Shown: positions 165-24,979, counted from the first letter of the stretch. The stretch: 32,000 bases of DNA from an uncultured Desulfuromonas sp. (GCA_963676955.1 OY781461.1:1512225-1544224); one strand, 5' to 3'. Notes: generated by a model not told the origin, from the sequence alone. Made by a program: numbers and translations.

Positions 165-1433
165 ATGGCGAAAATTTACTACAGTCTCTACGACCGGCTG
201 TTACACGAACAGAGACTACTTCGGGCATACGCGAAAATCAGGTCCAACAAAGGCAAGGCCGGAATCGACGGCCAGAGCGTAGAGGACTTTGCCGACCACC
301 TGCCGGAAGAAATCGCCGCCCTTGTGGGCGAACTCAAGGACAAGAGCTATCGACCAAAGCCAGTGAGGCGGGTAGAAATCCCCAAGCCTGACGGCGGCGT
401 CCGCCGGCTCGGAATCCCGACGGTTCGTGACCGTGTCGTCCAGCAGGCACTGCTGGACATCTTGCAGCCGATCTTTGATCCTGACTTTCATCCGTCCAGC
501 TACGGTTATCGTCCGGGCCGCAGTGCCCATCAGGCGATCGCCAAAGCCAGCCTGTTTATCAGGCGCTACCAACGGCGCTGGGTGGTGGACATGGACCTGT
601 CGAAATGCTTCGACACCCTAGACCATGACCAGATCATCCAGAGCATTCGTCGCCGGGTGACCGATGGAAGCATACTGGGATTAATTCGGCTGTTTCTGCA
701 AAGCGGGAACATGACGCAAGACGGCTGGCAAGCAAGCGAACAAGGGAGCCCCCAAGGCGGGGTGATCAGTCCGCTAATCGCCAACGTCTACCTCGACGCC
801 TTCGACCAGCACATGAAAAACCGAGGGCATCGAATCGTCCGCTACGCGGACGATATCCTGATCCTGTGTGGATCAAGAAGCGGGGCGGAAAACGCCTTCA
901 ACGTGGCAAGAAACTATCTGGAAGAAACCCTTCACCTGAGGGTCAACGAACGCAAGAGCCGGATTGTTCACAGCAGCGAAGGCGTACCCTATCTCGGAGT
1001 CATCATCACGAGCCGGTACACACGCATACAGAGCGAGAAGGTTCGACAGTTCAAAGCCAAGGTGAAGCGGATCACCCGGCGCAATACACCAGTCAATCTG
1101 GCCAAGGTCATCCACGACCTGAACCCGGTACTGCGTGGATTCACCAACTACTTCCGGGTAGCCAACTGCCGCGAGCAGTTCAGAAAACTGTCCCGGTGGA
1201 TTCGCCGACGCCTGCGAGCCAAGCAGCTGACACTGTGGAAAAAGCCGCAACGGCTCCACCGCAGACTCCGGCAGCTAGGCTATCAGGGCGAGTTCAAGGC
1301 CATCAAAATGAACTCATGGCGCAATGCCGCCAGCAACCTGGCCAACTATGCAATGCCGAACATCTGGTTTGCAAAGCAGGGACTTTTTGATCTAAGCAGA
1401 GTAGAGACGGGCTATCTGCCTCAGAGCTATTAG
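165..1433 (+). CDS. Group II intron reverse transcriptase/maturase (RT domains 0-7 plus X/maturase domain; no DNA-endonuclease domain)
   Basis: RT motifs are present: PKPDGGVRRLGIPTVRDRVVQQAL, YGYRPGRSAHQA, VVDMDLSKCFDTLDH, GSPQGGVISPLIANVYLD, the catalytic RYADDILIL, and the X-domain LNPVLRGFTNYF...WIRRRLR. The ORF ends shortly after domain X, so there is no HNH/En extension. Confidence 0.95.
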   Translation: MAKIYYSLYDRLLHEQRLLRAYAKIRSNKGKAGIDGQSVEDFADHLPEEIAALVGELKDKSYRPKPVRRVEIPKPDGGVRRLGIPTVRDRVVQQALLDILQPIFDPDFHPSSYGYRPGRSAHQAIAKASLFIRRYQRRWVVDMDLSKCFDTLDHDQIIQSIRRRVTDGSILGLIRLFLQSGNMTQDGWQASEQGSPQGGVISPLIANVYLDAFDQHMKNRGHRIVRYADDILILCGSRSGAENAFNVARNYLEETLHLRVNERKSRIVHSSEGVPYLGVIITSRYTRIQSEKVRQFKAKVKRITRRNTPVNLAKVIHDLNPVLRGFTNYFRVANCREQFRKLSRWIRRRLRAKQLTLWKKPQRLHRRLRQLGYQGEFKAIKMNSWRNAASNLANYAMPNIWFAKQGLFDLSRVETGYLPQSY

Positions 1434-1986: not shown

Positions 1987-3237
1987 TTACCGCGCGGTTG
2001 AAAACGGATTCAAAAACTGACGCCCCCACATCAGAGCCTTATCAACCGTGCTTAGCTCCGCTTCTTCACAGACACGATCCCAATGTTCACGAATGACGGC
2101 TTCTGTTTTATCAAAGAGGCTCATTGCCTCATCAGCGGACAAGAGAAAGTGCGGAGCAACCTCCAGGCAGGTTTTGAGTTGGCTGAAGCGATTATTGCCG
2201 ACAATTAACATGGCCTGTGTCGCTTCATTGCCTGTGCGCGCTTGCGGGCAAATGTCATAGGCGGGAGTTAAGGTCAATTCGCGCCCGTCCCAAAAGGCCG
2301 CATGGTTGCGGGCATGATCATCCGTATTTCCACATAGGATATTAAACACCAGGCGACCATACAGCTCTTGAAGCGTCTGTTTCGGCCTGGAAAAACGTGC
2401 GCGTATCATTTGTGCCAGCTCTTCATAGCTCGCATAGCGTGCCGTCATGTCGCTTAACCCAAACAGGGTCAGGGCGGAGACCATGCTTTTGCGCGTCCAC
2501 CCGGAATCTGATCGGAGGCGGTCAAAGCGTTCAATCAGCAACACATCTTTACCGGCGGCCTTGACCAACCGAACCGGCGCGACATTCAGTCCCGCCATTG
2601 CTGCCAGCCTCATCGCGATATATTCGGCTTTAACCACGCTGTAGGTATCGCTGCTGGATGAAAATTTAGCGATATATTTTGTCCCACGATCTTCAATCAA
2701 AGCTTTGGGGCGTGCTCCACCGATGGAGCTGCCATGAAATAAGGCCTGATCAAGTTCTGGGGTCAACGGGACACCTTTCTCAACCCGCTCCGCGGATTCC
2801 AGCAATTCCTCCAGCCGGGCATTGTGGGGCGATCTTGGGGTGTATTCACGTGGAGAGCGCTGAAAGTCCAGCGCGCCGATCCGGTCTGAACCAGATTCAA
2901 GTAAATAGGTCAGTTCATCAAGTTCCGCCGTATCCGTATGACGCCCTTTTTTTCCTAACTGCCGATTGATAATGACGCGCCGTCCCCATGCATCAGGCGC
3001 AGCATCGCGAATGCAGTTTGGAATTTCCAAGTCGCCGAGTAAAGGTAATATGCCGGGCTGCAAAGGCAGTTCAGGGTCGTAAATAGGGATAGCCTCTGGC
3101 CGGTTCAGATAGCTTTTACCATAGTTAAATTGGACAAGATGATTATCCGCTTCAAGCTTTCCGGCGACAACCGGCTTGGTTTTTCCCGGCAACCAGATCC
3201 AGACATAGGCTTCTTTGTTGTTTTGCTTAGAAGTCAT
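1987..3237 (-). CDS. hipA: HipA-family serine/threonine kinase toxin (type II TA)
   Basis: The 416-aa protein has HipA N-terminal features (DRIGALDF, GGARPK) and the catalytic-loop motif GNTDDHARNHAAF followed by LTPAYDICP. It overlaps the upstream HTH gene by 11 nt. Confidence 0.9.
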   Translation of the reverse strand: MTSKQNNKEAYVWIWLPGKTKPVVAGKLEADNHLVQFNYGKSYLNRPEAIPIYDPELPLQPGILPLLGDLEIPNCIRDAAPDAWGRRVIINRQLGKKGRHTDTAELDELTYLLESGSDRIGALDFQRSPREYTPRSPHNARLEELLESAERVEKGVPLTPELDQALFHGSSIGGARPKALIEDRGTKYIAKFSSSSDTYSVVKAEYIAMRLAAMAGLNVAPVRLVKAAGKDVLLIERFDRLRSDSGWTRKSMVSALTLFGLSDMTARYASYEELAQMIRARFSRPKQTLQELYGRLVFNILCGNTDDHARNHAAFWDGRELTLTPAYDICPQARTGNEATQAMLIVGNNRFSQLKTCLEVAPHFLLSADEAMSLFDKTEAVIREHWDRVCEEAELSTVDKALMWGRQFLNPFSTAR

Positions 3238-3987: not shown

Positions 3988-4230
3988 ATGGAACTCATGG
4001 CTGAACGGGCAGGCATATCAAGGGTTACACTTTCTAAAATTGAAAAGGGGGAAGCAACGGCTTCCATGGGGGCTTATGTCTCCGTCCTTTTTGCTTTGGG
4101 GCTGGTGGATAATCTTCAAAATCTTGCCGATGCCGGCCTGGATATCGTTGGGCGCGAATTGGAAGAAAACCCTCCTAAACGTGTGAGGCCTCCCAAAAGT
4201 AACAAAGGCAGTGAACCAAGAGCAGTCGAG
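3988..4230 (+). pseudogene. N-terminally truncated HipB-like HTH fragment
   Basis: MELMAERAGISRVTLSKIEKGE matches helices 2-3 of the intact HipB (LAERAGISRATLQKIEAGE). The codon before the ATG is a stop (TAA 3985-3987), so helix 1 is missing. The track ORF 3988-4386 runs on out of frame into hipA remnant DNA. Confidence 0.6.
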
Positions 4231-4238
4231 AAATATAT

Positions 4239-4823
4239 GTTTTTGTCCAGCTCTGAGAGGACACAATTCCAGTCGGAAAACTGTGGTGTCACCAACGCGG
4301 TGCACGCGAAAGTGCATCTTGTGAATATGATCAGAACTGGCTCAAACATCCTGAACGCTTTGCCCTTGATCCTGCATTGCAACTAACAAAGGGCGCCTTC
4401 CATACTCAGGCGGATCAACTCCTTTTTGTCGCTATTGGCGATTCCGCGCCGAATCGTTGGGGCTGATTATCTTCTGTGTTGATGATGAAGCGCGGCAAGG
4501 GGCGTTGAGATTTTCCCTCAAATCTGATGGTGGTTATCTCCTGCCTACGATATCAATCCCACGCCTGTTGAAATCAAAGCACGTATTCTTTCAATTGCCA
4601 TTGATTTTGACGACCCGATAGTCTCTATGGATGCCGCGCTTTCTGTGCGTGATGAATTTCGGATTAAAAAAAACGCACCCGTGAAATGATTAAGGAGGTC
4701 AGTGCGGCTGTTAGCCAGTGGCAGAAAATTGCTGCACAATATGGCCTCAGCAAAAGAGAAATTGAGCGCATGTCCTCTGCCTTTGAGCATGAGGATGCTG
4801 ATAAAAAAGGGACTTGCATCTGA
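4239..4823 (+). pseudogene. Decayed hipA, with an in-frame stop, frameshifts and the kinase core deleted
   Basis: Frame from 4239: VFVQL*EDTIPVGKLW...YDQNWLKHPERFALDPALQL...IGDSAPNRWG* (HipA N-terminal domain). RQGALRFS lies in a different frame. Frame from 4546: SPAYDINPTPVEIKARILSIAIDF. Frame from 4686: MIKEVSAAVSQWQKIAAQYGLSKREIERMSSAF (HipA C-terminus). About 585 nt remain, against 1251 nt for the intact copy, and no GNTDDHxRN motif is present. Confidence 0.75.
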
Positions 4824-5828: not shown

Positions 5829-6227
5829 TTATGATTTTTTTGAATAAACTTCAAAATAATGTCGTTGAATATGATGTGAAAGTTTTTCAGCCGTGGGGCT
5901 GAAGACTTTTATTTTGCTGAAATCCACCGGATCGGCGCAGAAGATGTAGGTCAGCCTCAGATCCTCAAGACTGTCGACGGTCAGGCCGCAAAAGACAATC
6001 CGCAACTCGGCGAGCTAGTCGTTTAAGTCCGCGGGCAGCGCCATCATGTAGGGGGGTGTCGTGAGGCGGGTTGGCCCGTTGGCTTCAGCGGTTTGCGTGA
6101 CAATCTCTACACTGTTCTGCGTGTTTTCAATCAATTCCCGGACCGTCAGCGGACGCTGGCTTAATATCGCTTGAGTTTGGCTATGACAGGGCAACGATTG
6201 AGTGGTGGCGGCTGCTGTTTTCGACAT
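5829..6227 (-). other. Unassigned ORF pair in one frame, separated by a single TAG (6015-6017). Possibly a pseudogene or two small ORFs.
   Basis: The first part starts at the ATG at 6227 (MSKTAAATT...ALPADLND). After the TAG, 61 further sense codons follow (LAELRIVFCGLTVDSLEDL...HYFEVYSKKS) to the TAA at 5829-5831. I recognise no family. Confidence 0.25.
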
Positions 6228-7698
6228 ACGCGGCAACCTGCCGGGCAAACGGATCACACAGGTCGATCCTGGCGAAATCAATGGCCAGATTGTTGAGATA
6301 TTGCAGGATCAGGGTATGGCGTCCGTGCAAGCCAAACGGCAACACGCCGCAAAAGAAGAAGCCCATCTTTTCACTGGCCTCACACAGCGCATCACATCCG
6401 GGCTGTTCCAGATCGAGAAACAGATAGAGAACATCGGTGCGTTCCAGGCACAGTCGTTTGGTGGCGACGAAAATTTCGTCGGCCATAGCGGCATCGTTGC
6501 TGAAACAAAGAATGTCCGCGGTATTAAAAATGTCCATCCGCGTGTAGCTGAGTTTGCAGTCCTCGTCGTGGCGATCGGTCTGCGTTGTCGGCACCTGCGG
6601 AGCTTCCATCGTAACCGGAACCTCGCAGTGGTGAAAGATGTCCCCGATCATGTTGCTGTGCTGTTTGGGGGGATAGATTTGCCGCAATGAGGCGTTAAAC
6701 GCCTTGAACACCAGCAGCGCACTCTCTTTCTGGACGGTTTTTCCCGTCAGCTTTTTGAATTCGACATCGTCGGGGAAAAGCCCCAGCAGCAAGCCACACC
6801 CGGCACACCCGGACGCGTGCAATTTTTTCTGTGACAAAGCGTGGCTGGTAACGGCGCGGCTATAGAGACCGGCCAGATTCTCTTGACCCGCCTGTTTGAA
6901 CAGGTAGCGGTGAATGCTGTCGAAGATACCTTTTTTGCGATAGGCCGGGTTGACAAACAGCACACCGGCTTCGGCAACCGGATCGTGGGGGTGATAAAAT
7001 TTCAACGCCGCATGACCTAAAAGGGTCTGTTGATCATCGACGGCCACATAAGAGCGTAAGGTGCCGCTGCGGTTCATCTCGACAATCTGCTCAGGGTAAT
7101 AGATGTAAGACTCGTAGCTGTAGCCATAGGCACGGTAGGCACAGCGTGAGATTTCCAGGGCATCGTCAGGGATAAACGGACGGACCTGCCATGTTGTCAG
7201 GGCAACGGGCGTTTCCGGTGGCTTGGGCGAGGACGGCGTCAGCGGGTCAATCCGTTTTGCCGCGACATGCTTGATCAGCAAGGTCTCTTTTCCGCCCCGG
7301 CCGAGATTGCGAAAATGCACTTCATCCATGGCCTGTTGGAGTAAAAACAGGCTCAAGGAGTCCTTGTGCAGTGGGGCGTCGTCCATGAGGGTGGTGGGGT
7401 CATAGCGGGGAATTTGCCCGGGAGCGACCGGCAGCCCTTTGTCGTAGATGGAGAGCTCCATGCGACCGGCAACATAGCGACACTCCAGGCGGATCTCCTG
7501 CGGGTCTTCCGCGGCTAACCCGTTTATGCCCAGCCCGTTCATGGTATAAACCAGGGCTTCTTCCGTCGCCAGTTGCACCGAGGCGACCTCGTTGTCGGCA
7601 AAGCCGAATAACTGTGCCGTCTGCTGGATAAAAGCCATGGCCACGGGCAGAAACTCCAGTTGACCGGGAAGCTTCAGGGTCAGTGTCGTTGCGGGCAT
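6181..7698 (-). CDS. RsbW/SpoIIAB-like (HATPase_c_2-type) module fused to a GNAT acetyltransferase core and an uncharacterised C-terminal domain
   Basis: I place the start at M42 of the track ORF (ATG 7698), with AAGGAG 6 nt upstream. The N-terminus (LKLPGQLEFLPVAMAFIQQTAQLFGF...ATEEAL...IYDKGLPV) resembles anti-sigma kinases. The middle has a GNAT motif A-like VLFVNPAYRKKGIFDSI. It is the last gene of a tight operon. Confidence 0.7.
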   Translation of the reverse strand: MPATTLTLKLPGQLEFLPVAMAFIQQTAQLFGFADNEVASVQLATEEALVYTMNGLGINGLAAEDPQEIRLECRYVAGRMELSIYDKGLPVAPGQIPRYDPTTLMDDAPLHKDSLSLFLLQQAMDEVHFRNLGRGGKETLLIKHVAAKRIDPLTPSSPKPPETPVALTTWQVRPFIPDDALEISRCAYRAYGYSYESYIYYPEQIVEMNRSGTLRSYVAVDDQQTLLGHAALKFYHPHDPVAEAGVLFVNPAYRKKGIFDSIHRYLFKQAGQENLAGLYSRAVTSHALSQKKLHASGCAGCGLLLGLFPDDVEFKKLTGKTVQKESALLVFKAFNASLRQIYPPKQHSNMIGDIFHHCEVPVTMEAPQVPTTQTDRHDEDCKLSYTRMDIFNTADILCFSNDAAMADEIFVATKRLCLERTDVLYLFLDLEQPGCDALCEASEKMGFFFCGVLPFGLHGRHTLILQYLNNLAIDFARIDLCDPFARQVAAYVENSSRHHSIVALS

Positions 7699-7732
7699 AA
7701 CGGCTCCTTGATGATGACAAATGGCGCGGTGT

Positions 7733-8086
7733 TTATGCGCCTTGGCACAGGGCAATCGCTTGTTCCAGATCGTCCACCACGTTGAGGATGGCGACAAAGC
7801 CGCTGATCTCGAACACCTCACGGATATGGCTGGATAAGCCGCTCACCGCCAGAGCCCCCTGCTGTGCTTTCACCCGCTTGACCGCCATAAGGAACACCCG
7901 CAATCCGGCGCTGGAGATATAATCTAATCCGGAACAGTCAAAAACGAGGTGGTGTTGCCCTTGTTCGATGTCATTCATCAGCTGTTGTTCAAAAGCCGGG
8001 GCAGTGGTGCTGTCCAGGCGGCCATTCAACGCGATCAGTAACAGGTTGTCGCGCTGGTCTTTGGTTACGTTCAGTTGATCTTCCAT
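7733..8086 (-). CDS. STAS-domain anti-sigma-factor antagonist (SpoIIAA/RsbV-like)
   Basis: The 117-aa product starts at the internal ATG 8086 (MEDQLNV...), with an AAGGAT RBS. It has the conserved DCSGLDYISSAGLRVFL segment with the phosphorylatable Ser. Confidence 0.85.
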   Translation of the reverse strand: MEDQLNVTKDQRDNLLLIALNGRLDSTTAPAFEQQLMNDIEQGQHHLVFDCSGLDYISSAGLRVFLMAVKRVKAQQGALAVSGLSSHIREVFEISGFVAILNVVDDLEQAIALCQGA

Positions 8087-8105
8087 GATTCCATCCTTTG
8101 CATGA

Positions 8106-10469
8106 TCAATGCAGTTTTTTGGTGAATTCCAAAACATTAAACGGTGCGTCGCGCCGGTAGCTCACGTCATCCATCAACGTGCGCAGAAAATGGATGCCCA
8201 GGCCGCCGATATCGCGTTGTTCCGCCTCCGACCTGAGATCCGGCTCCGGAGCCTCGAGGGGGTTAAAGGGAACGCCGTCATCCTGGAGACGCACCCGATA
8301 ACCGCCGTGTGTTCCCCACAACTCAATGGTAAACGGGTGATCTCCACCATCGGGAAAGGCATAGGTAATGATGTTGGTGACCAGTTCATCCAACACCAGG
8401 TTGAGTTGAAAGATGGCGGTTTGGTCAAGAGCGATGGTGGCCGAAAATTTTTCCACCGCATCGCCGAGTGCAACGAGCTGGCTGACGTCATTGGTCAAAG
8501 TCATTGTAATATGGCTCTCGTCGGAATTTTCTTGTCGGTTGCCATAGGTCAGGCTCAGGCTGGTGATGTCATCCGATTGTGCGGCGTCGGCTGCGTGGGT
8601 CTGCACTGCGGCAATAATTTCAGCCGTCAACTCTTCGGCGGAACGGTTGGCTTGTCCGGCCAGGATCGCCTGCAGACGTGTTTCGCCAAATTCCTCGTTA
8701 TTCGGATCAAACGCCTCGGTGACGCCATCGGTATAAAATTGCACCGTGTCACGGGGCTGTAGCTGGTGCTGCTTCTCCAGATAGTCCAACTCCGGCAGGA
8801 CGCCAAGGGCGGTGCCTTGGCATAAAGGCAGGGCCGTGACTTCGCCGACGTGCGTCACCAGCGGTGGGTTGTGGCCGCCGTTGGCGTAGGTCAGCAGGCC
8901 GGTTTCAACATCGAGAATGGCATAAAACACGGTGACAAACAGCTCCAACGGGTTTTCGCGGCACAGGATGTTGTTGACCCGCTGCAAGACCTGACCCGGT
9001 GCAAGGCCGGTCATGGCCGAACCGCGCAGTTCGGTGCGGGCGACGGCCATGAAAAATGCCGCCGGAACCCCTTTGCCGGAAACATCCGCGACCACCAGTC
9101 CGAGCCGGTTTGCGTCAATCTGGAAAACGTCATAAAAGTCACCGCCCATTTCGCGGGCCGGGATGGTGCGGCCATAGACCTGATAACGGTCATGCTGAGG
9201 AAACTCCGTCGGCAGGATCGCCATCTGCACGGCACGAGCGGCATCCAGCTCGCGTTGCAGGGTGCGATGAGCGTATTCCAGTTCACTGTTTTTTTGTTGC
9301 AGATCACGGGTGCGGTCTTTGACCTGACGATCCAGATCCTCTTCGCGGGCCTGAACCTGCTGCGCCATGCGGGTAAAAACCTGGGACAGTTGGCCCAGCT
9401 CGTCACGGCGCTCAGTAACCGGTTGCATGGTGTGGGCATCAAAGCGCCCCGCTTCAATCTCGGCCGCGGCGTCCGTTAAGGCAATCACTGGGCGGATCAT
9501 GCGACGGCCGACACTCAGTGAGACCAAGGTTCCGATGAGTGCCACCAGCAAACCCACCATGACGGCATTGGTGACAAGCTCTTGCAACGTGGCATTGATA
9601 TGGGCAGTGGGCAGTCGTACCAGGGTGACGCCGATGGGCTGGCCGTCCGTACCGGGAATCGGTGCCATCACCGTCAGATTCTGCGACGACAACAAACTCA
9701 TCGGCTCGTTTGCCTGATAGACCTCGGCCATTTTTTTCAGTTCGGTCGTGTCCGGGCGCTGATCCCCGCCGAGAATCGAGTCGTGGGCGATGGTCTCCAT
9801 GGTGCGATTCACCACCCAGATGGCGTTGATGTCGCCACCGGCGACCAATTGGCGGATGATATATTCCAGACCGATCCGTTCGTTGAGCTGGGTGAACAGC
9901 CCCATTTCGTAGCCCACTTGAACGATGCGCGGCTGATCAATGCCGGTGACACCGACATATTTAAACATTTTGCCATCAATCTCGCGCGGTTGCGCCGGTT
10001 GTACCACCTCAGACGATTCTCCGCTGAGTAACGGCCAGAACGCGGCGGCCTGAGATTGCTGCCGGGTATCGGCGGTGAAGGTGAAATCAAGGCCGAGATT
10101 ATTCAGAACGGCATGGCCGTGAGCATCGCTGATCCACAACTCATCCATGGCCGTGGAAGCGGTCAGTTGGCGTAATTGACTATTGATCTGTTCCTCGCTG
10201 AGCCCGGCTTGCTGGGCCGCGGCCACGTAATAGGCAGCCAGGCGCGCCTGGCTGACCATCTGCTCGTCCAGCACCTGTTCCACCGCGGCCGGGATCTGTA
10301 CCGCGGCCCCGGCACTGCGGGCGAGCAGAAGTGCCACAATGTTGCCCTCGGCCTCGGCCACGGTCAGCAGTTGGCGGCGGGCATTGACGGCGAGAACGAT
10401 GGTGGTCAAGGCCACGGCAAGGATCACCAGGCCGGTGGTGAACAAGGTCAGGCGCTGTTTAAAACCCAT
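8106..10469 (-). CDS. Membrane sensor: TM, periplasmic domain, TM, HAMP, PP2C (SpoIIE/RsbU-type) phosphatase, C-terminal RsbW-like kinase domain
   Basis: Two hydrophobic segments flank a ~270-aa extracytoplasmic region. A HAMP-like segment (RRMIRPVIALTDAAAEIEAGRF) and a coiled coil follow. PP2C motifs are GGDFYDVF and VVADVSGKGVPAAFFMA. The C-terminal HATPase has an N-box (DELVTNIITYA), G1 (QDDGVPF) and G2 (IGGLGIHF). Confidence 0.85.
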   Translation of the reverse strand: MGFKQRLTLFTTGLVILAVALTTIVLAVNARRQLLTVAEAEGNIVALLLARSAGAAVQIPAAVEQVLDEQMVSQARLAAYYVAAAQQAGLSEEQINSQLRQLTASTAMDELWISDAHGHAVLNNLGLDFTFTADTRQQSQAAAFWPLLSGESSEVVQPAQPREIDGKMFKYVGVTGIDQPRIVQVGYEMGLFTQLNERIGLEYIIRQLVAGGDINAIWVVNRTMETIAHDSILGGDQRPDTTELKKMAEVYQANEPMSLLSSQNLTVMAPIPGTDGQPIGVTLVRLPTAHINATLQELVTNAVMVGLLVALIGTLVSLSVGRRMIRPVIALTDAAAEIEAGRFDAHTMQPVTERRDELGQLSQVFTRMAQQVQAREEDLDRQVKDRTRDLQQKNSELEYAHRTLQRELDAARAVQMAILPTEFPQHDRYQVYGRTIPAREMGGDFYDVFQIDANRLGLVVADVSGKGVPAAFFMAVARTELRGSAMTGLAPGQVLQRVNNILCRENPLELFVTVFYAILDVETGLLTYANGGHNPPLVTHVGEVTALPLCQGTALGVLPELDYLEKQHQLQPRDTVQFYTDGVTEAFDPNNEEFGETRLQAILAGQANRSAEELTAEIIAAVQTHAADAAQSDDITSLSLTYGNRQENSDESHITMTLTNDVSQLVALGDAVEKFSATIALDQTAIFQLNLVLDELVTNIITYAFPDGGDHPFTIELWGTHGGYRVRLQDDGVPFNPLEAPEPDLRSEAEQRDIGGLGIHFLRTLMDDVSYRRDAPFNVLEFTKKLH

Positions 10470-10470
10470 G

Positions 10471-11634
10471 TTAAACCTCAGAATGCACGGGTGAGGGTGT
10501 CCTGGCCTGTTGCATCAACAGCACCGACACCAGAGTGAGAACCGCCATGGCATAGAAAAATACCCCATATCCCAGGGCGCTGATCAGAACACCGCCGAAC
10601 AGCGGACCGACAAAAAAGCCGGCCATGACCATGGCCAGAAAGATATTCTGGTTGAGAGCCCGTTTTTCCGGCGCGGAGATGTCAAACAACACCGCACCCT
10701 GCAGGGGCATGGCAACACCCCATCCCGCGCCCAGCAACACCGCCAAGCCTAAAAAAAGGCCTTCTTGATGGAACTGTGGAATCAGGGCATAGCTGACCAT
10801 GGCCGCCGCCATGCCGATCATGCTCATGGTCACCTTATCATAACGATCAAAAGCGCGTAACAGCAGCACGCGGATGAGGATCATGGCGGCGGAGGCTGCG
10901 CTGAAAAAGATGGCCGGATTTTTCAGATCCACGGAGGCACCGTAGGCGCGAATATAGTAGAAAATTGACGAATAGCCGCAGAACAGCAGCAGGGTCGACA
11001 GCTGCAGACACAACACCGGTCTGGAACGGAAACTGTCGACGACGCTACGTAATCCCGTGGCCTGATGCGCCACGGCAGCGGGGATTCTACCCTTGGGCAG
11101 GAAGACCGCCAGCACCGGCAAGAGTGACACCGCTGCGGCCAGATAGAGCACGGTTGTGAATTGGCCCGGCTGCTGGACACCCAGATCGATGATCACCGGG
11201 ATCACGGTATAGGGCAGCAAACGGATCAATGTAAAGACGCCGAACGCCTCGCCGCTGCGCCCTTCGGGGATAAACTCGATCAGCATTACCACCAGAGGCG
11301 CCTGGATAAATACCAGGCCGCAGCCCTGCACCAGGCGCAACAGTGAAAATTGCCACACCGTGCCGGCCTGTGCCATCAGCACCAGTGCCGTCGCATAGCA
11401 TAACACGCCGAGCACCAGCCAGCGACGGGCGTTTCCGTTGCTGACATAGGGGGCCAGCAGCAGTTGGAACACCAGCGAGGCCAGAGCATCAAAGCTCAGG
11501 ATCATGCCGATGGCCTGGGTGCTTATGCCGAGGTAGCCCAGATACTCCGTAAAGGAAACAAAGCAGGCCATTGCGCTGATAAACGCGCCGAACAGTAGCG
11601 TGATACTGATGAAACCGCGATTATAAAGACGCAT
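10471..11634 (-). CDS. MFS transporter
   Basis: The 387-aa protein has about 12 hydrophobic helices. Its stop codon lies 1 nt from the start of the sensor-phosphatase gene. A GGAG sits upstream of ATG 11634. Confidence 0.8.
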   Translation of the reverse strand: MRLYNRGFISITLLFGAFISAMACFVSFTEYLGYLGISTQAIGMILSFDALASLVFQLLLAPYVSNGNARRWLVLGVLCYATALVLMAQAGTVWQFSLLRLVQGCGLVFIQAPLVVMLIEFIPEGRSGEAFGVFTLIRLLPYTVIPVIIDLGVQQPGQFTTVLYLAAAVSLLPVLAVFLPKGRIPAAVAHQATGLRSVVDSFRSRPVLCLQLSTLLLFCGYSSIFYYIRAYGASVDLKNPAIFFSAASAAMILIRVLLLRAFDRYDKVTMSMIGMAAAMVSYALIPQFHQEGLFLGLAVLLGAGWGVAMPLQGAVLFDISAPEKRALNQNIFLAMVMAGFFVGPLFGGVLISALGYGVFFYAMAVLTLVSVLLMQQARTPSPVHSEV

Positions 11635-11995
11635 GATACTCCAAGGAGATGGATCCTGCTGTGCCCCATCTTTTTAGGAATGCACAATAGTTGCGCCGGA
11701 CCATGATTAATCTTGGTGCGTGAGTGGTGCGGCGGAGGTGCTGCTTTTGTTTATGTTTCATCTGCTTTGAGCCTGGGCAAAAGGATGATAACGTGACATC
11801 GACGCTGTCTGTGAGAGAACAGAAACGGATGTTTATCCTGGGCTTGTGTCAGCACGGCACGCCATAGTCCTTCTATGGCAACGACCTGTAACGCTCCTGA
11901 CGCGAAAAAGACCTAAAATAGTACCATGAAAGCTGATTGAGAACGCCGCCTAAGATGAGCCATTCATTAATACTGAAATTTTATGGAACTTCATT

Positions 11996-13507
11996 ATGAC
12001 AAAATTATCAACAGGTTCGCGAGCTATTTTTCTCGCCAAACTGTCTCTTCCCGTATCACGCTCCATGGTGTCGGTCGCGGTAGGTTGTGCGGGTCAAGTG
12101 ACCCAGGCCTTGCAACTGGATAAGACGTTTCGCAGTCAATTGGAGCTGGCGGTCGAAGAAGCTTTCAGCAATATCGTTGAACATTATTCCGTCATTCCCG
12201 GCGCCGATGATCGTATCCACGTGGCTTTTGCTCTAAACGCCGATACGCTCGTTGTTTCCCTGACGGAAAAAGGCATGCCGTTTTCTCCGGAGGCCGGACC
12301 GCGCTATTCCTCTGAGCGACTTGAAACCATGGAACGGCCGGGACTGGGAACCTTGCTGATGAGCCAGTGCGTGGATCATGTTGAGTTTCTGTTGCATGGG
12401 CGGCAAGGCAAAGAGACGCGACTGAGCAAGACGCTCACGGATGTCACGATTCCGGAGGATTTACTGCCGCTAAAGCAACCGCACAAACCGCAGCGTTTAA
12501 CTGTGGACGATTTTGAGATTCATTGTCCAGAGGAACATGAATTGGCTGAAATCAGTCGTTTGGCCTGGAAGTGTTACGGCTATAGCCAGGAAGAGTTGCT
12601 CTATGATCTCGACCTGTTGAAAAAGAAGTTCCGCTGCGGCGAGTATCGTCCGGTTGTTGTTATTGATGCAACAACACGGGCCATGGTGATGCATAGCTGC
12701 CTGAAATATCACGATCCGAACAGTCACGTTCCCGAGTATGGATTGGCTTTTGCTGATCCTGCGTACCGGGTTCCACGTCAAGCCGTTCGCGCGATGGCTT
12801 CAAAAGCGTTCGAACTCGCGCGGAACAATGGGGCTGACGGTGTTTTTGATTGTTCGGTAACGACCCATACCGCATCGCAAAAAGGGATGCAGGTCTACTG
12901 TGGTTCCCAGCCTTGCAGCTTATTCTTCGCCATTGCCGCAGCGGGAATGCAGGCCAGAGAGTTGTCCACCTCGGTTCAGGAAAAGGGCTCGGTGATCAAT
13001 CATTATTTCGCCTTTAACCGCACGGTAAAACAGGTGTTTTGCCCGCCACGTCACCTTGACATCATGCGCTGTATCTATCAATGGCTTGAGCTGCCACGAG
13101 AATTTTCTCAGCCACAAACCTGTGCGCTGACAGGCGACGCCGAGACGGATGTGTTTGCACTCCCCGACGAACTCAATGTCGTCTTTATTACGGTGCGCAA
13201 GATCGGCGAACAATCCGTGGAACAGATTGGCCAGGCGCTTCGAGATGCGCGCTTGAAACGCCGTCACGCCGTGTTTGTTTTTATCCCCCTCGGCATGCCT
13301 GCGGCACCGGCGCTGGTTGATCACTGTGAAAAGATGGGATTTTCTTTCGCCGGGTTGATGCCGCATATCCATGACGGTGATGACCGGATTCTGATGCAGT
13401 ATGTGGATTGTCCCGTGAATCTGGACGCCATTCGGGTTTATGGGGACCATTCGCGTCAATTGTTTGATTATGTGGTGCGTGAGTTAAAAGAGGTTGGTGG
13501 GCGTTAG
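11996..13507 (+). CDS. Paralogue of 6181-7698: RsbW-like HATPase module, GNAT-like core and the same C-terminal domain
   Basis: It is collinear with the other copy: LAVEEAFSNIVEHY (N-box), RPGLGTLLM (G2), YGYSQEELLYD, ADPAYR, and the C-terminal CEKMGFSFAGLMPHIHDGDDRILMQYV versus SEKMGFFFCGVLPFGLHGRHTLILQYL. Confidence 0.7.
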   Translation: MTKLSTGSRAIFLAKLSLPVSRSMVSVAVGCAGQVTQALQLDKTFRSQLELAVEEAFSNIVEHYSVIPGADDRIHVAFALNADTLVVSLTEKGMPFSPEAGPRYSSERLETMERPGLGTLLMSQCVDHVEFLLHGRQGKETRLSKTLTDVTIPEDLLPLKQPHKPQRLTVDDFEIHCPEEHELAEISRLAWKCYGYSQEELLYDLDLLKKKFRCGEYRPVVVIDATTRAMVMHSCLKYHDPNSHVPEYGLAFADPAYRVPRQAVRAMASKAFELARNNGADGVFDCSVTTHTASQKGMQVYCGSQPCSLFFAIAAAGMQARELSTSVQEKGSVINHYFAFNRTVKQVFCPPRHLDIMRCIYQWLELPREFSQPQTCALTGDAETDVFALPDELNVVFITVRKIGEQSVEQIGQALRDARLKRRHAVFVFIPLGMPAAPALVDHCEKMGFSFAGLMPHIHDGDDRILMQYVDCPVNLDAIRVYGDHSRQLFDYVVRELKEVGGR

Positions 13508-16150: not shown

Positions 16151-16858
16151 TTAGGCGGAGAGGCGATGTTGCTTCTTCCTTAGCGCCATAACCCCCATCA
16201 ATCCAAAGCTCAGAAGGGCAAATGTCGAAGGTTCCGGAACAACGGCACTTTGCTCTTCAACAAACCCCGAATAACTCACATAAGCCTGAGAATAATTATA
16301 AAAGCCGAATAGCCCGGTATTAAAATTCCCTGCAATATCAAAAATGGTTTCGTCGTCAATTGATATGATGGTACGTGCCGCGGAATAGTCGAGAGAGAAT
16401 TCGTAACTTTGGAGATCTCGCCATCCCAGGGAAGAAGAGTATGAACTGGCAAGGATCTCAAGATCGTTCCCTGTATGTCCCCACAGATTAATATCAGAGC
16501 CCGTGATTCGAGAAAGAGTGAAGCCTTCTAGTCCTGAGGTCTGATTGTTCTGCTTCCAGTCGAAAAGGAGATAGTCCTCTGAGCCATTAAAGCCAAAAAC
16601 AAAGCCGATGAAATCGTCATCGCTTGTTGTCTTTACAGTAAATGTCCCTTCAATCAAGCGATTAAAATAGTCAGTGTCACTGACAAAGTAAGTGGGTTGC
16701 CCATTGATGGTTTGCAGGACACTGTAGCCATCGTTACTCACGTTCCAGTTACCCCCTGGAGAGGCTGTCCAATTTTGTAAATTAATTGCCAGGGCAAATG
16801 CCATGGACGGCAAAGAAAAGATCATTACTACAAGGGGGAGCATGACGATTTTTCTCAT
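16151..16858 (-). CDS. PEP-CTERM-anchored secreted protein with a LamG/concanavalin-like domain
   Basis: It has a signal peptide (MRKIVMLPLVVMIFSLPSMAFA). The C-terminal sorting signal is VPEPSTFALLSFGLMGVMALRKKQ (PEP motif, TM helix, basic tail). The DDDFIGFVFGF segment is typical of TSP-type LamG folds. Confidence 0.8.
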   Translation of the reverse strand: MRKIVMLPLVVMIFSLPSMAFALAINLQNWTASPGGNWNVSNDGYSVLQTINGQPTYFVSDTDYFNRLIEGTFTVKTTSDDDFIGFVFGFNGSEDYLLFDWKQNNQTSGLEGFTLSRITGSDINLWGHTGNDLEILASSYSSSLGWRDLQSYEFSLDYSAARTIISIDDETIFDIAGNFNTGLFGFYNYSQAYVSYSGFVEEQSAVVPEPSTFALLSFGLMGVMALRKKQHRLSA

Positions 16859-16896
16859 TTTTTATCTCGTCTCAAAAAGAAGGTTAATAAAAAAAG

Positions 16897-17499
16897 CTAG
16901 TTTTGAGCCTTTTTAAGTACAACCAGCCCTAATAGGCCAATGGCAAGCAATATCAGAGTGGTAGGCTCAGGCACTGGCTGTGTTGCGGATTCGGCTACTG
17001 TACCTGTTAACGACCAGGAAAGCAGATCTGTTCCATCTCCAGGCCAGTAGGTATCCAAAAGCACAAGTGTCCATTCTCCAGCAAGACTTAACCCGTTGAA
17101 AACCGAGAGGGAGTCCAGTGCCTGAAAGGTCCCTTCAGCATTGACGGATGTGAAGTCATAGGAGATCAGAGAAGATGCAGCATCGTCAAAAACAACATCA
17201 AAAATGCCTTCAAAAAAATTAATTCCACCTGATGGCGCGAGAGAAACGCCGACACCATTGTGCTCAAGCCAGATGCTCACGTCTTTCCAAAATGTTTTTC
17301 CAGAGCTTTCATCTCCCAGTTCAATCTGAACATTGAGATCCGTTATTAAACCATTTAATTCTGAAGTAAGGGAAACGTAGGTTGCCGGATAGGTGTCGAT
17401 GTTGCCGGTAGCGTCGCCATCGAGAGTAAAAGACATTGCTCCGGCTGTCGTTGCCGTCAAGCCGAGTAAAACAATGCAGGTGACAAAAAGGGGTTTCAT
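16897..17499 (-). CDS. PEP-CTERM-anchored secreted protein with a proprotein-convertase P-domain-like module
   Basis: The start is taken at the internal ATG 17499 (MKPLFVTCIVLLGL...), with an AAGGAA RBS. ITDLNVQIEL...SIWLEHNGVGVSL...LAGEWTLVLLDTYWPGDGTDLLSWSL resembles a P-domain. The C-terminus is VPEPTTLILLAIGLLGLVVLKKAQN. Confidence 0.75.
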   Translation of the reverse strand: MKPLFVTCIVLLGLTATTAGAMSFTLDGDATGNIDTYPATYVSLTSELNGLITDLNVQIELGDESSGKTFWKDVSIWLEHNGVGVSLAPSGGINFFEGIFDVVFDDAASSLISYDFTSVNAEGTFQALDSLSVFNGLSLAGEWTLVLLDTYWPGDGTDLLSWSLTGTVAESATQPVPEPTTLILLAIGLLGLVVLKKAQN

Positions 17500-17836
17500 G
17501 GCTTTTCCTTTCTCGAGCAGGTTCTTCAGTAAGCACAAAATTCAAATCAAAAAAAGACTTTGAGTATAGCGCGATATTTCCCACAAAAAATAGACACTAC
17601 ATAAACTCAGGTTAACTGTAAATATAAAATTAATATAGGTGAATATTGGAATGGTAAAAATGTCAGTGAAAACAGTTGGTTGATAACGGGATAAAATTTC
17701 TAAAAGGTTAAAGTCCTCAAAGTCTAATCTTGACTATGTTTTTGCACATGAATAAATTTTATTGACAGCGGTAAAAACGAGCTGCTAGCCTTCGAGGACA
17801 TTTTGACTTAAAAATGTTTTCATCAAGGAGGCGGAT

Positions 17837-22491: not shown

Positions 22492-22515
22492 ATACGGTTA
22501 CAAATTTGTATCCTG

Positions 22516-23226: not shown

Positions 23227-23228
23227 CT

Positions 23229-23450: not shown

Positions 23451-23520
23451 GTTTTAAAAGAAATAGTGAGAGAAGCCGAACTCAAAAGAACATTATGGCA
23501 GCCGGAACAACAACCTGCGC

Positions 23521-24931: not shown

Positions 24932-24979
24932 GGTGTAGCCATTTAGGAGATAAATCCCTATGGGCGAAAAGAGGAGCTA

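What the first reader, a model, noticed from the sequence alone, without database searches (positions are those of the whole stretch)
6181..11634. A partner-switching operon has no sigma factor, and its anti-sigma-like kinase module is fused to a GNAT acetyltransferase
What the sequence shows:
- Four minus-strand genes are packed with gaps of 1, 19 and 34 nt.
- In order they are an MFS transporter, a sensor-HAMP-PP2C-RsbW-like fusion, a single-domain STAS protein (DYISSAGL phospho-Ser motif), and a 505-aa protein.
- The 505-aa protein has an RsbW/SpoIIAB-like N-terminal module followed by a GNAT core (VLFVNPAYRKKGIFDSI) and a ~170-aa unassigned C-terminal domain.
- No sigma factor gene lies anywhere in the 32 kb.

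Background: in canonical RsbU/V/W or SpoIIE/AA/AB systems, the kinase sequesters a sigma factor.

Inference: the STAS phosphorylation state may gate an acetyltransferase directly. The output would then be post-translational or metabolic rather than transcriptional. The MFS gene may supply or export the substrate.
Basis: partly seen in the sequence, partly recalled or inferred. Interest (0 to 1): 0.75.

Follow-up and report, generated by a model that had tools for sequence, protein, structure and literature searches.

The report
Partner-switch module driving a fused acyltransferase
A bacterial signalling operon of the kind that normally frees a sigma factor instead ends in a protein whose anti-sigma-like domain is welded to an acetyltransferase, suggesting that an outside signal is turned into a chemical modification rather than into transcription; the protein family is large, widespread and unstudied.

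Summary
Window 6181-11634 (minus strand, an uncultured Desulfuromonas) encodes four genes separated by 1, 19 and 34 nt:
- an MFS transporter;
- a 787-aa TM-sensor-HAMP-PP2C-RsbW-type kinase;
- a 117-aa STAS protein with a phosphorylatable Ser59;
- a 505-aa protein made of an RsbW-like domain, a GNAT domain and a second, degenerate GNAT-like domain.

No sigma factor lies in the 32 kb.

A full-length paralog (27% identity) sits divergently at 11996-13507. The 505-aa copy has lost the ATP-binding Asn and both G2 glycines that about 90% of the family keeps, so it is probably a STAS-binding pseudokinase, and the sensor's own kinase domain is the likely STAS kinase. The family is large: 1366 clusters at 50% identity, in more than 10 phyla.

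Linkage to partner-switch genes is real but partial. STAS, PP2C or RsbW genes lie within 3 kb in 19 of 80 loci. Ten of 15 single-domain STAS genes sit within 500 bp of the family gene (P = 2.6e-9). The same sensor|STAS|fusion trio recurs in WOR-3 and in Gammaproteobacteria. The closest relatives instead sit in MFS/ThiF/carboxyltransferase/AMP-ligase clusters.

Best reading: an enzyme-output partner switch. It is a new variant of a known kind, and no biochemistry has been done.

The parts
10471..11634 (-). MFS transporter (387 aa), first gene of the operon
   Evidence: Pfam MFS_1, E 1.1e-35. It is 30% identical (E 5e-41) to the MFS genes that overlap the start of paralog-type fusions in L087 and L088.
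8106..10469 (-). 787-aa membrane sensor: TM1 (res 7-28), a ~270-aa extracytoplasmic domain, TM2 (res 302-320), HAMP, PP2C and an RsbW-type kinase domain
   Evidence: Pfam HAMP, SpoIIE and HATPase_c_2. Hydrophobic segments and motif positions come from the sequence. Homologs with the same sensor domain are 37-58% identical.
9351..9512 (-). HAMP domain of the sensor (res 320-373)
   Evidence: PF00672, E 6.3e-10.
8547..9113 (-). PP2C (SpoIIE-type) phosphatase domain (res 453-641). The motifs GGDFYDV 442-448, ADVSGKG 461-467, TDGVTEA 580-586 and SDDITS 632-637 are present.
   Evidence: PF07228, E 1.3e-50. Motifs located.
8118..8495 (-). RsbW-type Ser kinase domain of the sensor (res 659-784) with an intact N box (DELVTN 694-699), DDGVPF 730-735 and G2 box (GGLG 755-758). 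It is the likely STAS kinase.
   Evidence: PF13581, E 7.9e-24. Motifs located.
7733..8086 (-). Single-domain STAS protein (117 aa). The predicted phospho-acceptor is Ser59 (codon 7910-7912) in DYISSAGL.
   Evidence: PF01740, E 1.1e-22, and TIGR00377, E 5.9e-23. The alignment to SpoIIAA and to 14 STAS neighbours of family genes shows the motif conserved. SD sequence AAGGA precedes the start.
6181..7698 (-). 505-aa RsbW-like / GNAT / GNAT-like fusion protein (FUS505)
   Evidence: Pfam. AF2 pLDDT 90.1, pTM 0.79. Foldseek hits RsbW, SpoIIAB and SpeG/RimI GNATs. The database copy is 100% identical and is named 'GNAT family N-acetyltransferase [uncultured Desulfuromonas sp.]'.
7270..7665 (-). RsbW-like domain of FUS505 (res 12-143) with a degenerate ATP site: Y51 in place of the N-box Asn, and S114/S116 in place of the G2 Gly-x-Gly
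   Evidence: Column counts in 109 relatives: N in 98, G in 103 and G in 97. Motif string EEYDGPSS against the family's EENEGPGG.
6700..7191 (-). GNAT domain of FUS505 (res ~170-333). Motif A is R254-K-K-G257-I-F. Family-invariant residues are Y193, H229, E243, R254, V283, H286 and Q290.
   Evidence: PF00583, E 8.7e-6. Foldseek hits SpeG and RimI with target TM-scores 0.7-0.85. Invariant columns.
6184..6699 (-). C-terminal domain of FUS505 (res 334-505), probably a degenerate second GNAT-like domain. Invariant residues are G451, P454 and Q466.
   Evidence: AF2 of the domain alone gives pLDDT 92.4. Foldseek against PDB gives only weak hits (E 3e-3 to 1e-2, TM 0.36-0.45, about 90-100 columns), and nearly all of them are GNATs.
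11996..13507 (+). Paralog PARA503 (503 aa, same three-domain architecture), transcribed divergently from the MFS gene. Its ATP-binding motifs are intact (N59, EKGMPF, GLG). Its GNAT motif A keeps the Arg but lacks the Gly.
   Evidence: BLASTP against FUS505 gives 27% identity over 491 aa, E 3e-45. HATPase_c_2, E 2.9e-14. Motifs. It belongs to a Desulfovibrionales-rich subfamily.
11635..11995 (.). 361-bp divergent intergenic region between the MFS operon and the paralog; possibly a shared control region
   Evidence: Coordinates and sequence. The consensus promoter scan was uninformative.

Best explanation
The locus is a partner-switching signal pathway whose output is an enzyme rather than a sigma factor.

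Shown by sequence, HMMs and models:
- A membrane sensor carries, in one chain, an extracytoplasmic domain, HAMP, a PP2C phosphatase with all its metal-binding motifs, and an RsbW-type kinase domain with intact N and G2 boxes.
- The next gene is a STAS protein with the conserved phospho-Ser (Ser59).
- The last gene is a 505-aa protein with an RsbW-fold domain, a GNAT domain and a GNAT-like domain.

Inferred mechanism:
- The sensor sets the phosphorylation state of STAS. Its kinase domain puts the phosphate on; its PP2C domain removes it when the sensor domain is triggered.
- Unphosphorylated STAS docks on the RsbW-like domain of the 505-aa protein, as RsbV docks on RsbW.
- In this copy that domain has lost its ATP-binding residues. 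It therefore acts as a pure STAS receptor (a pseudokinase) that cannot switch STAS off.
- Docking changes the activity of the attached tandem-GNAT acyltransferase, either by relieving or by imposing an intramolecular block.
- The acyl acceptor is unknown. It may be an amine metabolite or peptide moved by the co-transcribed MFS transporter, or a protein such as an adenylate-forming ligase.
- The ATP-competent paralog next door may act as a second STAS kinase/receptor or as a heterodimer partner.
For: Domain and fold assignments:
- Searches support all domain calls.
- The kinase and phosphatase motifs are intact in the sensor.
- The STAS phospho-site is conserved here and in the STAS genes next to family members.
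- The ATP site of FUS505 is uniquely degenerate within a family that otherwise conserves it: 63 of 82 sequences read EENEGPGG.

Linkage, starting from the fusion:
- Ten of 15 single-domain STAS ORFs in the 80 homologous loci lie within 500 bp of the family gene, against 6.4% of the flanking DNA (binomial P = 2.6e-9).
- Partner-switch genes lie within 3 kb in 19 of 80 loci. They are spread over every major clade.
- A WOR-3 genome (L029) has dCache-HAMP-PP2C-kinase | STAS | fusion.

Linkage, starting from sensor homologs:
- Two of 6 look-ups have the fusion adjacent: L092 and L095, the latter also with STAS.

Degenerate ATP sites:
- Two other copies that sit beside a separate RsbW-type kinase have also lost the N-box Asn (L065, L092). 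The tally is 3 of 8 against 5 of 81, Fisher p = 0.022.

No sigma factor in cis:
- None in the window.
- None among the top Pfam families of 124 immediate neighbours.
- None within 7 kb of any family gene.

MFS link:
- MFS genes flank the family in both subfamilies.

Precedent for STAS-type proteins controlling enzymes directly:
- HsbA-HsbD (PMC5085249) and SiaC-SiaD (PMC8457831).
Against: - No binding, phosphorylation or acyl-transfer data exist for any member; no paper on the family was found.
- Most loci (about 70-75%) show no partner-switch gene within 10 kb.
- The closest relatives of FUS505 (50-52% identity) sit in ThiF/carboxyltransferase/AMP-ligase/MFS clusters without STAS.
- The family as a whole keeps kinase-type motifs, so in most members the domain may act as a kinase rather than as a passive receptor. 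The direction of information flow (STAS to GNAT, or GNAT to kinase to STAS) is not fixed by the data.
- The correlation between a degenerate ATP site and a neighbouring kinase rests on 3 cases.
- The assignment of the C-terminal domain is weak (E about 3e-3).
- A sigma factor encoded elsewhere in the genome is not excluded.
Confidence: 0.55

Rival explanations
1. Reversed information flow. The tandem-GNAT part is a metabolite (acyl-CoA or amine) sensing or catalytic module that controls the attached RsbW-like kinase. The fusion protein is then an input that phosphorylates or sequesters STAS according to metabolic state, and STAS controls some other target, for example the MFS transporter or an unlinked protein.
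For: - Most family members keep the full RsbW-type ATP-binding motif set (63 of 82 read EENEGPGG).
- In Verrucomicrobia and Acidobacteria loci (L037, L043, L046, L049, L052, L060, L061) a phosphorylatable STAS lies directly upstream of the fusion with no other kinase gene in the locus. There the fusion is the obvious STAS kinase.
- The paralog PARA503 is ATP-competent.
- Sensor+STAS pairs homologous to the window's occur with unrelated downstream genes such as SulP, ABC exporters and two-component genes. STAS therefore has other targets in those genomes.
Against: - FUS505 itself lacks the Asn and Gly residues needed for ATP binding, so it cannot act as a kinase input here.
- A dedicated kinase and phosphatase already sit in the sensor protein.
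- No alternative STAS target is evident in the operon apart from the MFS.
Confidence: 0.2
2. Classical anti-sigma reading. The RsbW-like domain of the 505-aa protein (or of its paralog) sequesters a sigma factor encoded elsewhere in the genome. STAS releases that sigma factor, and the GNAT part is an accessory, for example acetylating the sigma factor or RNA polymerase.
For: - The N-terminal domain is most similar, by profile and by fold, to the true anti-sigma factors RsbW and SpoIIAB.
- Only 32 kb of a 3.9-Mb genome was visible.
Against: - There is no sigma-70-family gene in the window.
- In 87 sequence sources only two ECF-type ORFs were found, both more than 7 kb from the family gene.
- None appears among the top families of 124 immediate neighbours or in the six sensor-homolog loci.
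- Canonical rsbV-rsbW-sigB-type operons keep the sigma gene adjacent. In L066 (STAS|RsbW|fusion) the fusion occupies that position.
Confidence: 0.1
3. No functional link. The 505-aa protein is simply a biosynthetic or catabolic acyltransferase of the ThiF/carboxyltransferase/AMP-ligase pathway type. Its N-terminal domain is an ATP-binding or oligomerisation domain, and it landed next to an unrelated sensor-STAS pair in a rearranged, island-like region.
For: - The closest relatives sit in metabolic clusters without STAS.
- The window is rich in mobile or variable elements: a group II intron RT, HipA and RHS cassettes.
- The sensor-STAS pair occurs with other neighbours elsewhere.
Against: - The genes are tightly packed on one strand, with gaps of 1, 19 and 34 nt.
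- STAS is strongly enriched next to the family gene (P = 2.6e-9).
- The sensor|STAS|fusion combination has assembled independently in WOR-3 (L029), in Gammaproteobacteria (L092, L095) and here.
- Loci L014 and L068 combine the partner-switch genes with the ThiF/CT cluster.
Confidence: 0.05

Closest known systems
RsbU-RsbV-RsbW-sigmaB and SpoIIE-SpoIIAA-SpoIIAB-sigmaF partner switches of Bacillus
   Same: A PP2C phosphatase, a single-domain STAS protein with a phospho-Ser, and RsbW/SpoIIAB-fold HATPase_c_2 domains. The logic is a phosphorylation-controlled choice of binding partner.
   Different: - There is no sigma factor in cis.
- The phosphatase and the kinase are fused in one membrane sensor.
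- The second RsbW-fold domain is covalently joined to a tandem GNAT, and in this copy it lacks the ATP-binding residues.
HptB-HsbR-HsbA-HsbD of Pseudomonas aeruginosa (PMC5085249; HsbR domain content from my own knowledge)
   Same: One protein combines PP2C and an RsbW-type kinase and acts on one STAS protein. The STAS protein interacts with an enzyme (the diguanylate cyclase HsbD) and not only with an anti-sigma factor.
   Different: - Input is a phosphorelay receiver domain rather than a TM-HAMP sensor.
- The enzyme output (GGDEF) has no RsbW-like docking domain.
- The output chemistry differs: c-di-GMP rather than acyl transfer.
SiaABCD of Pseudomonas aeruginosa (PMC8457831, PMC7647112)
   Same: A membrane HAMP-PP2C protein. 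The 787-aa protein hits the SiaA model NF038263 at E 1e-40, far below that model's cut-off. There is a kinase, a phosphorylatable switch protein, and direct activation of an enzyme by the unphosphorylated switch protein.
   Different: - SiaC binds the stalk of the cyclase SiaD, not an RsbW-fold domain.
- In Sia the kinase is a separate protein.
- The window protein does not reach the SiaA equivalog cut-off (140 bits against 700).
GNAT acyltransferases with fused regulatory domains (mycobacterial cAMP-dependent Pat, Salmonella Pat, ACT-GNAT enzymes; AcuA/AcuC of Bacillus). This comparison rests on my own knowledge and was not tested here.
   Same: - An N-terminal regulatory domain is joined to a GNAT catalytic domain.
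- AMP-forming ligases, the classic targets of such enzymes, are recurrent neighbours of the family.
- HDAC-type deacetylase genes neighbour the family in Bacteroidales.
   Different: - The regulatory domain here is an RsbW-type HATPase_c_2 domain, which has not been described for GNATs in the searched literature.
- The catalytic part is a GNAT plus a GNAT-like tandem.
- The substrate is unknown.
MFS plus GNAT gene pairs such as Blt/BltD (spermidine efflux and acetylation) of Bacillus subtilis. From my own knowledge, offered as a lead only.
   Same: An MFS transporter gene is coupled to a GNAT gene. The best structural matches of the GNAT domain include the SpeG spermidine acetyltransferases.
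   Different: There is no sequence-level relationship beyond the GNAT fold. Nothing shows that polyamines are the substrate.

Membership tests
Partner-switching system (RsbU/V/W type) | Single-domain STAS protein with a phosphorylatable Ser/Thr in the D-S-(S/T)-G-L-type loop | tested here: met
   STAS PF01740, E 1.1e-22, and TIGR00377, 80.8 bits against a cut-off of 53.45. Ser59 aligns with SpoIIAA Ser58.
Partner-switching system (RsbU/V/W type) | PP2C/SpoIIE-family phosphatase with metal-binding Asp motifs | tested here: met
   PF07228, E 1.3e-50. The motifs GGDFYDV, ADVSGKG, TDGVTEA and SDDITS are present.
Partner-switching system (RsbU/V/W type) | RsbW-type Ser kinase (HATPase_c_2) with N, G1 and G2 boxes | tested here: met
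   Met by the C-terminal domain of the 787-aa sensor (PF13581, E 7.9e-24; DELVTN, DDGVPF, GGLG) and by the paralog PARA503.
Partner-switching system (RsbU/V/W type) | A sigma factor as the sequestered target, encoded with the system | tested here: not met
   No sigma-70-family domain in the window's ORFs. None recurs next to homologs. A sigma factor elsewhere in the genome could not be checked.
Partner-switching system (RsbU/V/W type) | Phosphorylation-dependent, mutually exclusive protein-protein binding | not testable with these tools
   Needs binding and phosphorylation assays.
Anti-sigma factor / Ser kinase RsbW-SpoIIAB family (for the N-terminal domain of the 505-aa protein) | HATPase_c_2 (Bergerat) fold similar to RsbW/SpoIIAB | tested here: met
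   PF13581, 38.3 bits against 27.4. The family profile hits 6m36 RsbW at E 9.5e-20. Foldseek target TM-score is 0.87-0.91 to RsbW. It does not reach the NCBIfam RsbW equivalog cut-offs (25.4 bits against 145).
Anti-sigma factor / Ser kinase RsbW-SpoIIAB family (for the N-terminal domain of the 505-aa protein) | ATP-binding residues: the N-box Asn and the G2-box Gly-x-Gly | tested here: not met
   FUS505 has Y51, S114 and S116, where 98, 103 and 97 of 109 relatives have N, G and G. The paralog and most family members do meet this feature.
Anti-sigma factor / Ser kinase RsbW-SpoIIAB family (for the N-terminal domain of the 505-aa protein) | Binds a sigma factor | not testable with these tools
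   No candidate sigma gene lies in cis.
GNAT (Gcn5-related N-acetyltransferase) superfamily | GNAT fold | tested here: met
   PF00583, 26.4 bits against 20.7. Foldseek hits SpeG, RimI and RimJ at E about 1e-8 with target TM-scores 0.65-0.85.
GNAT (Gcn5-related N-acetyltransferase) superfamily | Motif A (Q/R-x-x-G-x-G/A), the acyl-CoA pyrophosphate-binding loop | tested here: inconclusive
   FUS505 has R254-K-K-G257-I-F259. R254 is invariant in the family, G257 is present in 84 of 109, and the last position is Phe rather than Gly/Ala. PARA503 keeps the Arg but not the Gly.
GNAT (Gcn5-related N-acetyltransferase) superfamily | Acyl-CoA-dependent acyl transfer to an amine | not testable with these tools
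   Needs enzyme assays; the acceptor is unknown.
Known anti-phage defence systems (PADLOC) | Match to any PADLOC protein model | tested here: not met
   No hits for any of the five proteins at E <= 1e-3.

The most novel reading that the evidence does not exclude
This may be an 'intramolecular partner switch'. In this family the RsbW-fold domain would hold its own tandem-GNAT catalytic module in place of a sigma factor. Unphosphorylated STAS would compete for that surface. An extracytoplasmic signal read by the HAMP-PP2C-kinase sensor would then be converted directly into acylation of a metabolite or peptide (handled by the co-conserved MFS transporter) or of adenylate-forming enzymes. That would define a widespread, non-transcriptional output class for partner-switching signalling, with about 1366 clusters at 50% identity in more than 10 phyla. 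Copies next to a separate kinase would be evolving into pseudokinase receptors.
Probability: 0.3. Interest if true: 0.8.

Novelty: new variant of a known kind. Interest (0 to 1): 0.62.

Why it matters
Partner switching is a textbook route to sigma-factor control. Only a few enzyme outputs are known, mainly diguanylate cyclases bound by HsbA or SiaC.

Here the docking domain itself, with the anti-sigma/kinase fold, is fused to an acyltransferase. The resulting family has a fixed ~500-aa architecture and is found from Desulfobacterota to Verrucomicrobia, Bacteroidota, Acidobacteriota and Gammaproteobacteria.

If STAS gates the GNAT, two things follow:
- It adds a new regulatory-domain class to bacterial acyl/acetyltransferases.
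- It gives a direct line from a membrane sensor to metabolite or protein acylation.

The system is experimentally tractable. It has four soluble domains, and cultured hosts such as Maridesulfovibrio hydrothermalis, Pseudodesulfovibrio species, Trichlorobacter lovleyi and Syntrophorhabdus aromaticivorans carry family members.

The recurrent neighbours point to a still-unknown acyl-transfer pathway worth identifying. These neighbours are ThiF-like enzymes, carboxyltransferase, AMP-ligases, LuxC/LuxE, MFS transporters, HDAC-like proteins and amidohydrolases.

Tried and rejected
- **FUS505 as the STAS kinase in this operon.** Set aside because its N-box Asn and both G2 glycines are replaced. The sensor's kinase domain is intact.
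- **Window MFS as the ortholog of the MFS in the ThiF/carboxyltransferase clusters.** Rejected: only short, weak local BLASTP matches (best E 2e-5 over 64 aa; the rest E >= 0.004). It is instead related (30% identity, E 5e-41) to the MFS coupled to paralog-type fusions.
- **Search for a cis sigma factor.**
  - Pfam on all sizeable window ORFs found none.
The sensitivity of that home-made profile is limited.
- **Promoter and terminator scans.** Promoter-like sites were at shuffle level; terminator-like hits were more numerous than in shuffles (22 against 8.7 ± 3.8) but defined no transcript boundaries.
- **Literature.** Five searches for an RsbW/HATPase_c_2-GNAT fusion or for surveys of partner-switch outputs found nothing on this family.
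- **Defence-system membership.** Rejected.
- **One malformed Pfam request.** One search failed on a wrong frame and was repeated.

Full report
**1. Observation**

The window matches an uncultured Desulfuromonas genome. The 505-aa protein is 100% identical to an nr entry named 'GNAT family N-acetyltransferase', on a 3.89-Mb contig.

Four minus-strand genes occupy 6181-11634:
- an MFS transporter, 10471-11634;
- a 787-aa protein, 8106-10469;
- a STAS protein, 7733-8086;
- a 505-aa protein, 6181-7698.

The longer ORF versions of the last two (starts at 8137 and 7821) are unlikely. Shine-Dalgarno sequences precede ATG 8086 (AAGGA) and ATG 7698 (AAGGAG), and homologs begin at the equivalent residues.

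- MFS_1 (1.1e-35);
- HAMP (6.3e-10), SpoIIE/PP2C (1.3e-50) and HATPase_c_2 (7.9e-24) in the 787-aa protein;
- STAS (1.1e-22);
- HATPase_c_2 (residues 12-143, 1.6e-9) and Acetyltransf_1 (residues 204-279, 8.7e-6) in the 505-aa protein, both above the curated cut-offs.

No sigma-70-family domain was found in any other sizeable ORF of the 32 kb. The rest of the window holds:
- a group II intron RT;
- HipA;
- DUF2202;
- a CBS protein;
- a Na/H exchanger;
- two PEP-CTERM proteins;
- RHS genes;
- a pepsin-like protease;
- an avidin-like protein;
- a hybrid histidine kinase.

**2. Anatomy of the parts**

*Sensor.* The 787-aa protein has two hydrophobic segments (residues 7-28 and 302-320) flanking a ~270-aa extracytoplasmic region that has no Pfam match. 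Then come HAMP and a PP2C domain with the usual metal-binding motifs: GGDFYDV, ADVSGKG, TDGVTEA and SDDITS. A C-terminal RsbW-type kinase domain has an intact N box (DELVTN), DDGVPF and G2 box (GGLG). It is therefore a bifunctional kinase/phosphatase sensor.

*STAS.* The STAS protein carries DYISSAGL.

*The 505-aa protein (FUS505).*
- A profile of its family matches RsbW (6m36) at E 9.5e-20 and SpoIIAB at about 1e-9.
- Its AlphaFold model is confident (pLDDT 90.1, pTM 0.79). It matches RsbW/SpoIIAB (target TM-score up to 0.91) and the SpeG/RimI/RimJ GNATs.
- The unassigned C-terminal 172 residues, modelled alone (pLDDT 92.4), give only weak Foldseek hits (E 3e-3 to 1e-2, about 90-100 aligned columns). 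Almost all of those hits are GNATs. I read this domain as a degenerate second GNAT-like domain, with low confidence.

**3.

(a) *A paralog.* A gene at 11996-13507 (+), divergent from the MFS gene, has the same three-domain architecture. It is 27% identical over 491 residues (E 3e-45). The window thus holds one STAS domain, one PP2C domain and three HATPase_c_2 domains.

(b) *A degenerate ATP site.*
- In 109 aligned relatives the N-box Asn is present in 98 and the two G2 glycines in 103 and 97.
- FUS505 has Tyr, Ser and Ser at these positions, plus a small insertion after the N box.
- Among 82 sequences from genomes, 63 read EENEGPGG at the eight key positions. FUS505 alone reads EEYDGPSS.
- The paralog keeps all ATP-site residues. 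It has lost the Gly of GNAT motif A while keeping the invariant Arg.
- FUS505 is therefore probably a pseudokinase, and the sensor's own kinase domain is the best candidate STAS kinase.

(c) *A large family.*
- 594 clusters at 90% identity passed E 1e-3 in the word-indexed search.
- 378 stretches in GTDB species-representative genomes (one genome per species) encode a relative.
- 1366 representatives at 50% identity score E <= 1e-30 against the family profile.
- Nearly all are about 500 aa long.
- Invariant residues are Y193, H229, E243, R254, V283, H286 and Q290 in the GNAT domain, and G451, P454 and Q466 in the C-terminal domain.

**4. Is the fusion really tied to partner-switch genes?**

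*Starting from the fusion.* In 80 loci from many phyla I called ORFs and searched them with iterated profiles of the window's STAS, PP2C and kinase domains.
- Partner-switch genes lie within 3 kb in 19 of 80 loci.
- They are directly adjacent on the same strand in 15.
- Among the 53 loci with at least 3 kb on both sides, 16 have them.
- Ten of the 15 single-domain STAS ORFs found anywhere in these loci lie within 500 bp of the family gene. That zone is 6.4% of the flanking DNA (binomial P = 2.6e-9).

The arrangements vary:

| Loci | Arrangement |
|---|---|
| L029 (WOR-3) | dCache-HAMP-PP2C-kinase, STAS, fusion: the window's trio |
| L066 | STAS, RsbW, fusion |
| L065 | dCache-HAMP-PP2C, RsbW, fusion |
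| L050, L064, L071 | REC-PP2C, fusion, amidohydrolase |
| Verrucomicrobia and Acidobacteria loci | STAS, fusion, M23-like |
| L014, L068 | partner-switch genes combined with the ThiF/carboxyltransferase cluster |

On a neighbour-joining tree these loci are scattered over all major clades. The STAS neighbours keep the (D/E)Y(I/V)SSAGLR phospho-site.

*Starting from the sensor.* Homologs share the same extracytoplasmic domain at 37-58% identity. Six look-ups gave:
- two loci with the fusion directly adjacent. L092 (Halothiobacillaceae) reads LuxE|LuxC|AMP-binding|fusion|sensor. L095 reads the same and adds STAS;
- four loci with other neighbours: a SulP-STAS transporter, ABC exporters, or two-component genes.

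None has a sigma factor.

*Sigma factors near the family.* Across all sequence held, a home-made sigma-70 profile found two ECF ORFs, both more than 7 kb from the family gene. No sigma domain is among the top 25 Pfam families of 124 immediate neighbours.

**5. The other side of the synteny**

Most loci show no partner-switch gene. The closest relatives of FUS505 (50-52% identity) lie in MFS|fusion|ThiF|carboxyltransferase|unknown|AMP-ligase clusters, or next to unrelated genes.

Recurrent neighbours across the family:

| Neighbour | Loci |
|---|---|
| Carboxyltransferase | 16 |
| ThiF-like | 9 |
| MFS | 9 |
| AMP-binding | 9 |
| Amidohydro_3 | 7 |
| M23-like | 7 |
| HDAC-like | 4 |

The paralog's subfamily is common in Desulfovibrionales. 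Where it was checked, it is preceded by an MFS gene whose stop overlaps its start. The window's MFS is 30% identical to those MFS proteins (E 5e-41). It has no full-length similarity to the MFS of the ThiF clusters.

Adenylate-forming enzymes and candidate deacylases recur as neighbours. That fits either of two roles:
- a small-molecule acyl-transfer pathway;
- control of AMP-forming ligases by acylation, as in the Pat/AcuA paradigm (my own knowledge, not tested here).

**6. Mechanism proposed**

*Shown:* the domain content, the motif status and the conserved neighbourhoods.

*Inferred:*
- The sensor toggles STAS between Ser59-phosphorylated (via its kinase domain) and unphosphorylated (via its PP2C domain).
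- Unphosphorylated STAS docks on the RsbW-like domain of FUS505.
- FUS505 cannot phosphorylate STAS, so the complex is stable.
- Docking switches the tandem-GNAT acyltransferase, and the MFS moves the substrate or product.

Three copies that sit beside a separate RsbW-type kinase have lost the N-box Asn: the window, L065 and L092. The tally is 3 of 8 against 5 of 81 (Fisher p = 0.022). This is a small sample and some of the cases are phylogenetically related.

The main rival reverses the flow. In copies with an intact kinase site and no other kinase nearby (Verrucomicrobia and Acidobacteria), the fusion is probably the STAS kinase, and its GNAT part may sense acyl-CoA or a metabolite. Lesser rivals are a trans-encoded sigma factor and chance adjacency.

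**7. Comparison with known systems**

The module works like a partner switch. It meets the family's STAS, PP2C and kinase criteria but fails the sigma-factor criterion in cis.

The closest characterised relatives in logic are:
- SiaABCD, where SiaC binds and activates the cyclase SiaD (PMC8457831).

Neither has the docking domain fused to the enzyme, and neither uses a GNAT. The 787-aa protein hits the SiaA model far below its cut-off (140 bits against 700).

No paper in the held library describes an RsbW/HATPase_c_2-GNAT fusion. None of the five proteins matches a PADLOC defence model.

**8. Verdict**

The system is a new variant of a known kind: an enzyme-output partner switch built on an uncharacterised, widespread fusion family.

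Interest is moderate to high (0.62). The chemistry and the direction of signalling are still inferences, but the system is well defined and testable.

Noticed in passing
L081-L084, L002, L006, L009, L014, L017, L021-L023, L026 (family loci): Many family members sit in a conserved cluster: MFS | fusion | ThiF-like (~265 aa) | carboxyltransferase (~465 aa) | unknown ~480 aa | AMP-binding ligase. Some also have biotin carboxylase. This looks like an uncharacterised acyl-activation and acyl-transfer pathway.
   Followed up: partly
L092 1-5857 and L095 1-5810: In Gammaproteobacteria the fusion follows LuxE-like, LuxC-like and AMP-binding genes (fatty-acyl activation/reduction type enzymes). It directly precedes a sensor-PP2C-kinase homologous to the window's.
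   Followed up: partly
L047, L070, L073, L075 (Bacteroidales); L033, L036, L039, L050, L064, L071, L079: The fusion is followed by an HDAC-family deacetylase gene in 4 Bacteroidales loci. It is flanked (up- or downstream) by an Amidohydro_3 gene in 7 Desulfobacterota-type loci. These could be acyl 'writer/eraser' pairs.
   Followed up: no
L090 and L094, 3789-8772: The closest homologs of the window's sensor (55-57% identity) lack the fused kinase. They sit in SulP-STAS transporter | sensor-PP2C | RsbW | STAS | solute-binding protein operons, another sigma-less partner-switch context.
   Followed up: no
window 165-1433 (+): Group II intron reverse transcriptase/maturase (RVT_1 E 1.6e-43, GIIM E 1.5e-19).
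   Followed up: no
window 1987-3237 (-) and 3988-4386 (+): A HipA-like kinase toxin gene (HipA_C E 1.5e-50) with a nearby XRE-type HTH ORF on the other strand. This is not the usual hipBA order.
   Followed up: no
window 17837-25303 (+): A 1493-aa RHS/YD-repeat protein is followed by three shorter ORFs with RHS core or repeat fragments (22516-23226, 23521-24741, 24995-25303). This looks like an array of displaced toxin-tip cassettes.
   Followed up: no
window 26235-28291 (+): A pepsin-like aspartyl protease (PF00026 'Eukaryotic aspartyl protease', E 5.4e-20), uncommon in bacteria, overlaps the start of an avidin-family ORF (27416-28291, E 2.3e-6). A same-length ORF on the opposite strand (26196-27470) is probably spurious.
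   Followed up: no
window 16151-17538 (-): Two PEP-CTERM proteins lie here. One has a thrombospondin C-terminal-like domain (TSP_C, E 2.7e-15).
   Followed up: no
L056 88-2993; genomes DIVV01 (L009, L033) and CAZJFS01 (L020, L028): Several genomes carry two family members, once as a tandem pair. This echoes the two divergent paralogs in the window. Heterodimers of the RsbW-like domains are conceivable.
   Followed up: no
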